Source: a virus (lineage: Duplodnaviria; Caudoviricetes). From it: a stretch of 64,000 bases of DNA. This document shows, piece after piece, positions 61,976 through 63,775 of this stretch. The notes under the pieces were generated by a model. The model was not told where the DNA came from. It saw only the letters and a program-made list of their open reading frames with translations, and made no database searches. Within the stretch, counting starts at the first letter, position 1. Each line of letters opens with the position of its first letter. The stretch lies in the IMG/VR virus record IMGVR_UViG_3300020577_003313; one strand, written 5' to 3'. Position numbers and translations under genes: made by a program.

Positions 61976-62612
61976 AAGCTAAAGACTTATTGACTACAAA
62001 TAGATCGCCTTCTCCATATGGGTGAAAGTTAGGAGTGCTAAACTCCTTAACGAGGAAGTCATTTTCTTTTAAGAATTCTTCTACCACACTCTTAACTGGA
62101 TGTCCCTCATAGTAAGGTACCATCGTTGCTTCTGTATGTATAAAGTCTACAGTACTTAGGTAATCACCCATCCCGATCATTACTTCTATTTCAAATCCTT
62201 GGGCGTCGGCCCAAAGTATGTCTACTTTGGTAATTCCTAGTTCTTTAAGAATAGAATCTAGTCGCCTGACCGGTACTGGATACTCATTATAGTCTTGGAC
62301 TATAGCAGAGTAGTGTGGTTTAAGTAAACTTCCAGCTCCGTGGTTTTGATTTTGTGGAGGAGAGTGAAGTATAGCTGTTCCTTCACTACTACCTAGAGCA
62401 ACTGGGAAGAACTTTATATTAGTGGTTAACTTAGATTCTATTTCAGCTTTTTGATGTGGGTTAGGTTCAAATGCTAATATCAGAGCATCAGGATATACTG
62501 ATCTGAATTCCAAGCTTTGTCCTAGATCTCTTGATCCAACATCTAATATAACTTTGGGACTGTAAGAAGGTTTTTCCTTCTTAATAAAGTCAAGAAACTT
62601 GTCTATTAGCAT
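61968..62612 (-). CDS. FkbM-family SAM-dependent methyltransferase
   Basis: ILDVGSRDLG, AFEPNP, VALG, VRRLD and DILWADAQGFE..V..G motifs; the likely start ATG 62612 overlaps the upstream stop. Confidence 0.9.
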   Translation of the reverse strand: MLIDKFLDFIKKEKPSYSPKVILDVGSRDLGQSLEFRSVYPDALILAFEPNPHQKAEIESKLTTNIKFFPVALGSSEGTAILHSPPQNQNHGAGSLLKPHYSAIVQDYNEYPVPVRRLDSILKELGITKVDILWADAQGFEIEVMIGMGDYLSTVDFIHTEATMVPYYEGHPVKSVVEEFLKENDFLVKEFSTPNFHPYGEGDLFVVNKSLAYG

Positions 62613-63775
62613 TTTGCAGCTCCCCACTTTGCCACAGCTTCTCCGAACTCTTGTCCGTATTCTTCGTGGACAGCTTGTACCATAGCTTGAGCGCCAGCAT
62701 ATGTACCGCCAGGATGAGCATGTATTGCTCCGCCAGTATTAGCTAGCCAGTCGTTACCGACTTTAGCTTTAATAGAAGCTACTAGCCCAGGGTGCATTCC
62801 ACAGCTTAGAGCTGGTATAACGTTGTAAGATCTTAAGGTATCTAATACTTTAAGAGTTTCTGCGTCGTTATTTGAGTACCCACCAATCATGCCTGCATGA
62901 AGTGAGTCAACACCGCACATACCTGCTAGTTGGCACAAAACATTCCAGCTAATTCTATATGTGTTTGAGTTGTTAGTCAGAGTTTCTATTCCACTTCTTT
63001 GGTAGTGGATAAATATTGGCAAGTCTAGTTCTCTAATGGATTTGTAAGCACCAAGACCAGACCAGAAGTTAACATGAACTGAATTACCACCAAGCTTATG
63101 TACTAGTTTTACTCTATCTAGAATATGAGCAGGATCAGAATTTATGCACACGGAATAGATAGGTGGGTTAGCTTTATTTGCTAGAAAGTTAGCTACCAAA
63201 GGTACTCTATCTTCTATTTTACAGAAAGATGGATTAGATAGTATCTCGTCTTCCTTAATAAAATCAAGTCCACTGTCTACCATCTCCTTGACCATATCAA
63301 GAAGAGTCTCTTTACTCAAGCCAGTCTTTGGCTTGAGAATACCTCCAGCGAACGGTCTACTGTTTCTTGCGCCTCTCCTCTCTCTTAGTCCAGTTATACC
63401 GTATTTTGGTGGTAGCACTTTTAACTTAGGGGCCTCCAAGGCCACAACCTTGCAAGCAATAATATTGTCTATATCAGACTGGCCGCCTTGAATCATGCAT
63501 AATAGCTGAGATACTCCATCAGTTTCCCAGTCTAGATTAATATATGGAAAAGCTATTTCTACTCTATTTCCTGAGTAGCCCACAATCTTACAGCTATGAT
63601 TTCTAAATAGTTCTTCGGATTCCCATCTGTTTCTAAGATTAGGATTACCAACGCTTTGGCCTATAGCCAAATCCCAGGCAGCTTTTTGTATACCATCTCT
63701 TGAGATTATCTCATAGGTTACAAAGAAGTGTGTGTCTTTCAGTTCTTCTTTATTAGCTTCGGTTATTATCTTCAT
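62606..63775 (-). CDS. RuBisCO-like protein (form IV RLP)
   Basis: GGILKPKTGL, GLDFIKEDEILSN (carbamylated Lys plus Mg ligands), PALSCGMHPG and GGAIHAHPGG..AGA.AM; lacks the residues equivalent to E60, N123, H294 and K334. Confidence 0.92.
   Translation of the reverse strand: MKIITEANKEELKDTHFFVTYEIISRDGIQKAAWDLAIGQSVGNPNLRNRWESEELFRNHSCKIVGYSGNRVEIAFPYINLDWETDGVSQLLCMIQGGQSDIDNIIACKVVALEAPKLKVLPPKYGITGLRERRGARNSRPFAGGILKPKTGLSKETLLDMVKEMVDSGLDFIKEDEILSNPSFCKIEDRVPLVANFLANKANPPIYSVCINSDPAHILDRVKLVHKLGGNSVHVNFWSGLGAYKSIRELDLPIFIHYQRSGIETLTNNSNTYRISWNVLCQLAGMCGVDSLHAGMIGGYSNNDAETLKVLDTLRSYNVIPALSCGMHPGLVASIKAKVGNDWLANTGGAIHAHPGGTYAGAQAMVQAVHEEYGQEFGEAVAKWGAAKC

What the first reader, a model, noticed from the sequence alone, without database searches (positions are those of the whole stretch)
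62606..63775. RLP active site has a distinctive substitution pattern pointing to a new reaction
Seen, by-eye alignment to form I numbering: K175/K177 (LKPK), K201/D203/E204 (FIKEDE), R295, H327 and S379 are kept. E60 appears as G (AIGQSVG), N123 as G (QGGQ), H294 as Q (IHYQR) and loop-6 K334 as Y (GGYS), and SGG becomes SCG. At 389 aa it is compact. Established: K334, H294, E60 and N123 are needed for RuBP carboxylation. Inference: it binds Mg and a possibly bis-phosphorylated substrate and forms an enediolate but does not fix CO2, so it is likely an isomerase, epimerase or tautomerase. It should not be annotated as a carbon-fixation auxiliary gene.
Basis: partly seen in the sequence, partly recalled or inferred. 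Interest (0 to 1): 0.7.

Follow-up and report, generated by a model that had tools for sequence, protein, structure and literature searches.

The report
Phage RuBisCO-like sugar-pathway enzyme
A large tailed phage carries an intact RuBisCO relative that keeps the metal-binding, proton-abstracting core but has lost every residue needed to fix CO2; it is wired to, and in other genomes fused to, a sugar-activating enzyme inside a glycan gene cluster, so it most likely helps build an unusual activated sugar, a job never shown for this fold.

Summary
The gene (window 62606-63775, minus strand, 389 aa) is a RuBisCO-superfamily protein. K175, K177, K201, D203, E204, R295, H327, S379, G381, G403 and G404 are kept. 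E60 is G, T65 is N, N123 is G, H294 is Q, H298 is I, K334 is Y and G380 is C. This signature is essentially invariant across a monophyletic family down to 33% identity, so it is a selected active site and not decay.

It is not a carboxylase and matches no named RLP subfamily. It belongs to the phage/Beckwithbacteria 'Form IV-like' clade published by Jaffe et al. 2019, whose function is unknown.

Gene context gives a more specific reading. The RLP is locked to an NDP-sugar pyrophosphorylase, a small metal cupin and a miniature GDPD-like phosphodiesterase. Natural RLP-NTase and RLP-NTase-cupin fusions exist. In sister cassettes a phosphomannomutase or another HAD-fold enzyme takes the RLP's place. 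The best reading is an enolising sugar-phosphate isomerase that feeds the nucleotidyltransferase. The substrate is unknown.

This scan has already reported the same cassette on other DNA. I re-derived those conclusions independently here.

The parts
62606..63775 (-). RuBisCO-like protein, 389 aa (P0001), 'Form IV-like' clade. Signature: G39(E60) N44(T65) G98(N123) K148 K150 K174 D176 E177 Q259(H294) R260 H293 Y300(K334) S324 C325(G380) G326 G348 G349.
63778..64000 (-). C-terminal 73 aa of the 108-aa HxH...E metal cupin (g16), cut by the window end. The full gene is L001:9672-9998. Its stop codon lies 2 nt before the RLP start.
   Evidence: Present in 20/23 viral RLP loci. Fused to the NTase in L035 and to RLP+NTase in P0271/P0272.
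61968..62627 (-). FkbM-family methyltransferase (214-219 aa). Its start overlaps the RLP stop.
   Evidence: Pfam PF05050 E 3.9e-18 and TIGR01444. Found next to the RLP in 9/23 viral loci.
61382..61975 (-). HAD-superfamily protein of the beta-phosphoglucomutase family (197 aa). It could be a mutase or a phosphatase.
   Evidence: PF13419 E 3.8e-23 and TIGR02009. Rare beside an RLP (2/23 loci) but the usual partner of the NTase where the RLP is absent (49/80 loci).
60921..61385 (-). Miniature GDPD-like (PLC-like) phosphodiesterase, 154 aa (g20), with invariant HRGN...EN...ExD...GHD motifs.
   Evidence: Present in 22/23 viral RLP loci. AF2 pLDDT 93. Foldseek top hits are GDPDs (prob 1.0, TMq about 0.6).
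60115..60954 (-). Co-directional operon gene of 269-279 aa with no family match.
59429..59959 (-). Last co-directional gene of the operon, 176 aa, with no family match.

Best explanation
The gene encodes a functional, non-carboxylating RuBisCO-fold enzyme of the phage/CPR 'Form IV-like' clade. SHOWN at the sequence or model level: it has a complete N-domain plus (beta/alpha)8 barrel. It keeps the carbamate lysine and metal ligands (K174, D176, E177), K148 and K150, the P1 phosphate cradle (G326, G348, G349) and part of the distal phosphate site (R260, H293). It has replaced E60, N123, H294 and K334 by G, G, Q and Y and has lost the C-terminal loop-6 clamp. INFERRED: it binds Mg2+ on a carbamylated lysine, anchors a phospho-ketose, abstracts a proton next to the carbonyl to make an enediolate, and reprotonates it, giving an isomer or epimer without adding CO2. 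SHOWN by context: it works with an NDP-sugar pyrophosphorylase (g15, just outside the window), a small metal cupin and a mini-GDPD, inside a phage operon of glycosyltransferases and methyltransferases. INFERRED pathway: the RLP and the PMI-like cupin turn a common sugar phosphate into the phosphate ester that the pyrophosphorylase activates to an NDP-sugar for a glycan, probably O-methylated by the FkbM enzyme. A phosphomannomutase or HAD enzyme occupies the RLP's place in sister cassettes. My specific, testable proposal follows from that: the RLP moves the carbonyl along the chain, as in the reverse of the Rhodospirillum rubrum RLP 1,3-proton-transfer reaction, so that a distal phosphate ends up next to the carbonyl. 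The cupin then closes the sugar to an aldose-1-phosphate. This would be a mutase-free route.
For: Active-site mapping and its invariance across 34 representatives. Monophyletic family, SH-aLRT 99. AF2 pLDDT 95.2 with Foldseek TMq 0.80-0.89 to form III RuBisCO and to RLPs. NTase g15 is present in 23/23 viral and 44/50 cellular RLP loci, the cupin in 20/23 viral loci and the GDPD in 22/23. g15 matches the 4evw NDP-sugar pyrophosphorylase at E 5e-30. Natural fusions exist: RLP-NTase (P0124), RLP-NTase-cupin (P0271, P0272) and NTase-cupin (L035). The operon carries GT2, GT-D and other glycosyltransferase-like genes and two methyltransferases. In RLP-less cassettes the same slot holds PMM (PF03332) or the NTase is fused to a HAD domain. 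Raw counts among 80 NTase loci are RLP-only 19, HAD-only 49, both 1, neither 11. The cupin's nearest solved small relatives are annotated mannose-6-phosphate isomerase (7zvm).
Against: No biochemical data exist and the substrate is unknown. The mutual exclusivity of RLP and HAD/PMM rests on only about 2-5 independent switches on the NTase tree, and the independent-pairs test is underpowered (median p 1). This phage itself carries both the RLP and a beta-PGM-like HAD, which fits a sequential role at least as well as a substituting one. Fusions do not give the order of steps. The role of the mini-GDPD is unexplained. In Legionella nautarum the RLP-NTase pair sits beside a LicD-family phosphotransferase, which would fit an activated phospho-alcohol rather than a classic glycosyl donor. 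The carbonyl-walk mechanism is my own inference from R. rubrum RLP chemistry (recalled knowledge) and was not tested.
Confidence: 0.55

Rival explanations
1. The RLP still feeds the nucleotidyltransferase, but its reaction is C-C bond chemistry rather than simple isomerisation. It could be a decarboxylation, transcarboxylation or retro-aldol-type rearrangement of an enediolate, as in the apiose-pathway RLPs (OiaX and relatives), producing a branched-chain or chain-shortened sugar phosphate.
For: OiaX-type RLPs are among the best-scoring annotated relatives (25-30% identity). The metal/carbamate core that stabilises enediolates is intact. Rare branched sugars are typical products of viral and bacterial glycan islands (general knowledge).
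Against: OiaX-like sequences keep H294 and K334, whereas this family has Q and Y. The NCBIfam OiaX score is 98 bits against a cut-off of 700. The family is a separate clade. No acid-sugar kinase or dehydrogenase of the apiose or tetronate pathways is conserved beside it.
Confidence: 0.15
2. The RLP acts after activation. It would isomerise or epimerise an NDP-keto-sugar made by the pyrophosphorylase, using the retained distal phosphate site (R/K295, H327) to hold the diphosphate.
For: Fusions and adjacency do not fix the order of steps. K177, R/K295 and H327, which are usually lost in monophosphate-using RLPs, are kept here.
Against: Every characterised member of the superfamily uses a small phospho-sugar held in the P1 cradle (established knowledge). 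No 4,6-dehydratase, which would create an NDP-keto-sugar, is part of the conserved core. Replacement by PMM or HAD in sister cassettes points to a step before the NTase.
Confidence: 0.12
3. It is a methionine-salvage-type RLP, either a DK-MTP-1-P enolase or a 5-methylthioribulose-1-P isomerase, recycling SAM by-products during infection.
For: Those are the best-known RLP functions. PDB hits include MtnW structures (4nas, 2oej).
Against: It scores 82 and 115 bits against cut-offs of 513.6 and 409 for the two MtnW models, while a true MtnW (P0239) scores 641-652 bits. The active-site signature differs at N123, K177, H294, R295, H327 and K334. No mtn genes lie within 10 kb in this phage or among the conserved neighbours.
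Confidence: 0.05
4. It is a real, if unusual, RuBP carboxylase serving as a carbon-fixation auxiliary gene.
For: Automatic annotation of relatives calls them 'ribulose-bisphosphate carboxylase large chain'. K175, K177, K201, D203 and E204 are kept.
Against: E60, N123, H294 and K334 are all replaced and the C-terminal loop-6 clamp is deleted. All RuBisCO NCBIfam models score far below their cut-offs. No phosphoribulokinase, small subunit or R15P isomerase lies nearby. The family occurs in heterotrophs such as SAR11, Legionella and CPR/DPANN.
Confidence: 0.02
5. It is a non-catalytic relic or scaffold.
For: Several canonical catalytic residues are lost.
Against: The remaining catalytic core and the replacement residues (G39, G98, Q259, Y300, C325) are invariant over a family reaching 33% identity. 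The fold is intact and confidently predicted.
Confidence: 0.03

Closest known systems
'Form IV-like' RuBisCO-related proteins of phages and Beckwithbacteria (Jaffe, Castelle, Dupont and Banfield 2019, Mol Biol Evol; PMC6389311)
   Same: It is encoded on a large myovirus-like phage. It is highly divergent from other RLPs and forms its own clade outside them. It lacks several catalytic residues. A Beckwithbacteria homologue (L049, 45% identity) falls in the same family.
   Different: That paper left the function open and discussed the proteins in terms of RuBisCO gene transfer and carbon metabolism. Here the clade is tied to an NDP-sugar pyrophosphorylase/cupin/mini-GDPD cassette, with fusions, and is shown to extend to SAR11, Legionella, DPANN, Actinomycetota and others.
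Rhodospirillum rubrum RLP (5-methylthio-D-ribulose-1-phosphate 1,3-isomerase; IV-DeepYkrW/Photo-type chemistry)
   Same: It is a RuBisCO-fold enzyme that enolises a ketose 1-phosphate and relocates the carbonyl without carboxylation. In R. rubrum the RLP is followed by a cupin enzyme (recalled knowledge).
   Different: It belongs to a different clade with a different residue signature. The context there is methionine salvage and isoprenoid synthesis, not a nucleotidyltransferase and glycan cluster.
MtnW/YkrW 2,3-diketo-5-methylthiopentyl-1-phosphate enolase
   Same: The fold, the carbamate-Lys/Mg2+ core and enolisation toward the phosphate-bearing C1.
   Different: It fails both NCBIfam MtnW models by a wide margin. 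It has K177, R295 and H327 where MtnW-type sequences have V/G, P and L. There is no mtn context.
Bifunctional type II phosphomannose isomerase / GDP-mannose pyrophosphorylase plus phosphomannomutase pathway
   Same: The cassette logic matches. It has a nucleotidyltransferase plus a metal cupin, fused in L035 and P0271/P0272, and sister cassettes carry a PMM in the RLP's slot.
   Different: Here a RuBisCO-fold protein stands where the mutase would be. The NTase is of the uncharacterised 4evw type. A mini-GDPD is an added constant partner.
Form III RuBisCO of the archaeal AMP pathway (Thermococcus kodakarensis, PDB 3a12/3a13)
   Same: It is the best structural match (TMq 0.87-0.89), and K175, K177, K201, D203, E204, R295 and H327 are shared.
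   Different: E60, N123, H294, H298 and K334 are replaced and the termini are shortened. There is no AMP phosphorylase or R15P isomerase partner.

Membership tests
RuBisCO large-subunit superfamily (PF00016) | Significant match to the catalytic-domain HMM | tested here: met
   116 bits against a cut-off of 30.1, E 2.7e-33
RuBisCO large-subunit superfamily (PF00016) | N-terminal alpha+beta domain followed by a (beta/alpha)8 barrel | tested here: met
   AF2 pLDDT 95.2 and pTM 0.92. Foldseek gives prob 1.0 and TMq 0.80-0.89 to RuBisCO and RLP structures.
RuBisCO large-subunit superfamily (PF00016) | K201-D203-E204 metal/carbamate motif and K175 | tested here: met
   K174, D176, E177 and K148 are invariant in the family. 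Carbamylation itself is not testable here.
Bona fide RuBisCO (forms I-III) | E60, N123, H294 and K334 present | tested here: not met
   The residues are G, G, Q and Y, invariant in the family
Bona fide RuBisCO (forms I-III) | Score above the curated NCBIfam cut-offs (TIGR03326, NF003252, NF010002) | tested here: not met
   146 bits against 497, 134 against 438, and 73 against 489
Bona fide RuBisCO (forms I-III) | RuBP carboxylase activity | not testable with these tools
   Needs a 14CO2 assay
MtnW/YkrW DK-MTP-1-P enolase | Score above the TIGR03332 / NF007095 cut-offs | tested here: not met
   82 bits against 513.6 and 115 against 409. The control P0239 scores 641 and 652.
MtnW/YkrW DK-MTP-1-P enolase | Methionine-salvage gene neighbourhood | tested here: not met
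   No mtn-type genes lie within 10 kb or among the conserved neighbours
OiaX 3-oxo-isoapionate-4-phosphate decarboxylase | Score above the NF042437 cut-off | tested here: not met
   98 bits against 700
Phage/Beckwithbacteria 'Form IV-like' RLP clade (Jaffe et al. 2019) | Encoded on phage genomes, some large Myoviridae-like | tested here: met
   The window carries a baseplate wedge (phrog_6) and virion proteins. There are 23 IMG/VR loci on contigs up to 316 kb.
Phage/Beckwithbacteria 'Form IV-like' RLP clade (Jaffe et al. 2019) | Groups with Beckwithbacteria sequences and apart from all other RLP clades | tested here: met
   The Beckwithbacteria MAG homologue L049 is 45% identical and carries the cassette. 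The family is one clade with SH-aLRT 99.
Phage/Beckwithbacteria 'Form IV-like' RLP clade (Jaffe et al. 2019) | Direct clustering with the published sequences | not tested

The most novel reading that the evidence does not exclude
A RuBisCO-fold enzyme has been recruited as a biosynthetic sugar-phosphate isomerase. Together with a PMI-like cupin it would replace the phosphomutase step of nucleotide-sugar synthesis by moving the carbonyl instead of the phosphate. This would supply a rare activated sugar, or sugar phosphate, for surface glycans of phages, a possible giant virus, SAR11, Legionella and CPR/DPANN cells. It would be the first anabolic, glycan-building role for the RuBisCO superfamily.
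Probability: 0.3. Interest if true: 0.8.

Novelty: new member of a known kind. Interest (0 to 1): 0.6.

Why it matters
Automatic pipelines label this family 'ribulose-bisphosphate carboxylase large chain'. In viral metagenomics that label would be read as a carbon-fixation auxiliary gene, and the evidence here says it is not one. The clade is large. More than 2,000 database relatives were found, about 40 clusters at 50% identity score at E 1e-30 or better, and members occur in abundant marine SAR11 and in many phages. Its function has been open since 2019. The cassette context, the natural single-polypeptide fusions and the presence in cultured bacteria turn 'unknown RLP' into a directly testable hypothesis. 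If confirmed, it would add a new reaction and a new physiological role (glycan precursor synthesis) to a well-studied enzyme fold. It could also reveal a new sugar on phage or host surfaces that is relevant to phage-host recognition.

Tried and rejected
- GenBank phage genomes (INPHARED) were searched by tblastn with the RLP and gave no match. No cultured phage in that collection can serve as a model.
- No whole genome is held for the window.
- The first genome-contig scan, with the single protein, found nothing. The profile scan succeeded.
- I considered that g15 might be an IspD-like cytidylyltransferase acting with a cupin methylsulfurylase, in the style of the R. rubrum MTA-isoprenoid shunt. 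I dropped this idea. g15 is clearly an NDP-sugar-pyrophosphorylase type (4evw, RmlA, ManC). The cupin's nearest relatives are generic or PMI-like. No DXP or MEP genes are present.
- I looked for a paper linking RLPs to nucleotidyltransferases, nucleotide sugars, giant viruses or Legionella and found none.
- I tried to make the RLP versus HAD/PMM exclusivity phylogenetically rigorous. Only 2-5 independent contrasts exist, so no significance can be claimed.
- Control genomes with RuBisCO, named by the genome search, yielded no loci. Annotated plasmid genes were used as references instead.
- PHROGs has no family for the RLP.
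Full report
**What is there**

The finding's coordinates hold an ATG-initiated ORF of 389 codons on the minus strand (window 62606-63775). Pfam assigns it to the RuBisCO large-chain catalytic domain (E 2.7e-33). All curated NCBIfam subfamily models are missed by a wide margin:
- form III: 146 bits against a cut-off of 497
- form I/III subfamily: 134 against 438
- form II: 73 against 489
- MtnW: 82 against 513.6 and 115 against 409
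- OiaX: 98 against 700

The best solved relatives are only 22-26% identical (3nwr, 4nas, 8dht, T. kodakarensis form III).

**Checking the residue mapping**

I aligned the protein with these sequences (MAFFT L-INS-i):
- 33 family members
- about 75 distant representatives from an exhaustive HMMER search of 1.84 billion cluster representatives
- four annotated references: C. necator form I CbbL, a Rhizobium OiaX, and Haloterrigena and Thiodictyon RLPs

Reading the columns of the form I motifs gives this mapping:
- Kept: K175, K177, K201, D203, E204, R295, H327, S379, G381, G403, G404
- Replaced: E60 to G, T65 to N, N123 to G, T173 to L, H294 to Q, H298 to I, K334 to Y, L335 to S, G380 to C

The independent HMMER pairwise alignments agree.

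The pattern is not peculiar to this gene. In all 34 representatives, spanning 78% down to 33% identity, the signature is invariant or nearly so. The signature is G60/N65/G123/K175/K177/K201/D203/E204/Q294/(R or K)295/H327/Y334/S379/C380/G381/G403/G404. Only the basal member P0140 departs from it, with P65, S123 and G380. Sixteen of the 21 canonical sites lie in the 58 most conserved of 389 columns (P about 1e-10).

**Fold and compactness**

An AlphaFold2 model built on the family alignment is very confident (pLDDT 95.2, pTM 0.92). It superposes on form III RuBisCO (TMq 0.87-0.89) and on RLPs (0.80-0.86). The short length has four sources:
- about 22 missing N-terminal residues
- a 20-residue deletion in the alpha6-beta7 loop
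- about 20 missing residues of C-terminal helices
- loss of the 17-residue C-terminal tail, which in RuBisCO locks loop 6 (established knowledge)

Loop 6 itself has normal length, but a Tyr stands at the Lys334 position.

**Phylogenetic place and prior knowledge**

In an IQ-TREE analysis of 115 sequences the family is a single clade (SH-aLRT 99). It is separated from bona fide RuBisCOs, OiaX-like sequences, MtnW (P0239, verified by NCBIfam) and all other sampled RLP lineages.

Jaffe et al. 2019 (PMC6389311) already reported about 80 'Form IV-like' RLPs on phage contigs, some Myoviridae and one curated genome of about 200 kb. They grouped with Beckwithbacteria sequences as an outgroup to all RLPs, had divergent key residues and had unknown function. 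The present gene fits that description. The window is a large tailed phage with a baseplate wedge and virion proteins. A Beckwithbacteria homologue belongs to the same family. So the clade is known, and what it does is not.

**Context**

The RLP lies in a long minus-strand operon that runs off the window. A 42.8-kb contig of the same phage (L001) shows about 22 co-directional genes:
- several glycosyltransferase-like genes (GT2 clearly; GT-D and others weakly)
- two methyltransferases
- g15 (246 aa)
- g16 (108 aa)
- the RLP
- an FkbM methyltransferase
- a beta-PGM-family HAD
- g20 (154 aa)
- two genes of unknown function

I searched the 22 operon proteins by tblastn against 23 IMG/VR loci that carry an RLP relative. 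This shows a conserved core of g15 in 23/23, g16 in 20/23, the RLP in 23/23 and g20 in 22/23. FkbM is present in 9/23 and the HAD in 2/23.

The partner genes can be identified as follows:
- g15 is an NDP-sugar pyrophosphorylase (profile against PDB 4evw at E 5e-30, then ManC/RmlA types).
- g16 is a metal cupin with an HxH...E motif whose nearest small solved relatives include a 113-aa mannose-6-phosphate isomerase.
- g20 has the HRG...EN...ExD...GHD motifs of glycerophosphodiester phosphodiesterases. It folds (pLDDT 93) into a shortened GDPD-like barrel.

**Fusions**

Natural fusions tie these proteins together:
- P0124 is RLP-NTase.
- P0271 and P0272 are RLP-NTase-cupin triple fusions. Their RLP parts are 66% identical, so they are not duplicates.
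- A 452-kb, 28% GC contig has an NTase-cupin fusion next to the mini-GDPD and the RLP.

**Cellular spread**

A profile scan of one genome per prokaryotic species found 50 loci. Carriers include:
- SAR11, including a complete Pelagibacter chromosome
- Beckwithbacteria and Saccharibacteria
- Woese-, Pace-, Nano- and Micrarchaeota
- Verrucomicrobia, Planctomycetes and Bacteroidota
- Legionella nautarum, L. drozanskii and L. maceachernii
- Nonomuraea rosea and Azospirillum oleiclasticum

The NTase is adjacent in 44 of the 50 loci.

**What replaces the RLP**

I fetched 80 viral loci centred on the NTase family, out of at least 573. Twenty carry the RLP and 50 carry the beta-PGM-like HAD directly upstream of the NTase. 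Only one carries both and 11 carry neither (Fisher p 8e-10). In loci with neither, one of two things is seen:
- The slot between cupin and GDPD holds a eukaryotic-type phosphomannomutase (PF03332, E 3e-18 and 2e-20).
- The NTase carries a fused C-terminal HAD domain.

NT-cupin-PMM is the textbook PMI/PMM/pyrophosphorylase route to an NDP-hexose. The RLP cassette has the same layout with the RLP in the mutase position.

There is a caveat. On the NTase tree the RLP state changes at least 5 times. Only 2 (well supported) to 5 independent contrasts exist, and the independent-pairs test has no power. The raw p-value is inflated by relatedness. This phage is also one of the few with both RLP and HAD, so a sequential role for the HAD, for example removing a distal phosphate, is equally possible here.

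**Mechanism**

Shown:
- an intact fold
- an intact metal/carbamate triad, with K175 and K177 kept
- a retained P1 cradle and a partly retained distal phosphate site
- loss of all four residues tied to CO2 addition, hydration and cleavage

Inferred from established RuBisCO and RLP enzymology: Mg2+-dependent enolisation of a phospho-ketose, followed by reprotonation.

Inferred from context: the product goes, via the cupin, to the pyrophosphorylase and on to glycosyltransferases.

My specific proposal is speculative, at about 0.3. The RLP would perform a carbonyl walk, the reverse sense of the R. rubrum RLP reaction, converting a distal-phosphate ketose into a ketose 1-phosphate. The cupin would then convert that to an aldose-1-phosphate, bypassing a mutase. 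The mini-GDPD's role is unexplained.

**Rivals**

The rival explanations are C-C chemistry giving a branched sugar, action on the NDP-sugar after activation, methionine-salvage chemistry, true carboxylation, and a non-catalytic role. They are weighed in the rivals section. The last three are poorly supported.

**Relation to earlier scan notes**

The scan's index holds reports on other genomes that describe the same cassette and reach the same general reading. One of them suggested that the RLP stands where other phages have a phosphomannomutase. I used these as leads only and re-tested them here. The PMM observation reproduces. Its statistical weight is weaker than raw counts suggest.

**Verdict**

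The gene is a new member of an already published but functionally uncharacterised clade. It should not be annotated as a carbon-fixation gene. The most useful outcome is a concrete, testable pathway hypothesis.

Noticed in passing
window 1-58575, + strand: The rest of the window is a tightly packed run of very large ORFs: 2005, 1633, 1567, 1532, 1149, 1123, 1110, 1074, 984 and 930 aa, among others. Only a few match PHROGs (baseplate wedge phrog_6; virion structural phrog_21108 and phrog_19670). The baseplate wedge is at most 29% identical to any GenBank phage (Moorella phage MTATph1). This is a deeply novel large myovirus-like phage of unknown host.
   Followed up: partly
P0243, P0238, P0159/P0170 (distant hits): Other RuBisCO-superfamily fusions turned up. 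They are a TIR_2 domain fused to a RuBisCO-like protein (583 aa), a RuBisCO-like protein fused to an APH-type kinase domain (1265 aa), and IF-2B (R15P-isomerase/MtnA family) fused to form-III-like RuBisCO (726 and 742 aa).
   Followed up: no
L079:6639-7490 (minus strand) beside L079:7995-9868: In Legionella nautarum the RLP-NTase pair sits next to a LicD-family phosphotransferase (PF04991, E 1e-42). This hints that the activated product might be transferred as a phospho-alcohol or phospho-sugar through a phosphodiester, which would also give the GDPD-like partner a rationale.
   Followed up: no
L035 (452-kb contig, 28% GC), 6412-9722: This very large AT-rich contig has a DUF5754 gene, looser gene spacing, and sugar epimerase, TPP-enzyme and DHQ-synthase-like neighbours. 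It carries the NTase-cupin fusion, the mini-GDPD and the RLP. It may be a giant virus rather than a phage.
   Followed up: partly
L040:731-2101 (Candidatus Pelagibacter sp. Uisw_094 chromosome): A HAD-NTase fusion protein (456 aa) lies about 6 kb from the mini-GDPD-like/NTase/RLP genes in the same SAR11 island. A 2-hydroxyacid dehydrogenase and a CMP-sugar-synthetase-like gene are also present.
   Followed up: no
L003:9672-10004: The cupin homologue in this IMG/VR phage, which is the closest viral relative at 58% RLP identity, contains an in-frame stop codon. This could be a pseudogene, a sequencing error or recoding.
   Followed up: no
P0273 (724 aa): An RLP of this family is fused to a C-terminal extension of about 330 aa with no Pfam match and no similarity to g15 or g16.
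   Followed up: no
P0191, P0196, P0199, P0211, P0267: A separate, well-supported small RLP clade (SH-aLRT 100) also has Tyr at the K334 position but keeps H294 in most members and has C at K177. It has no named NCBIfam family.
   Followed up: no
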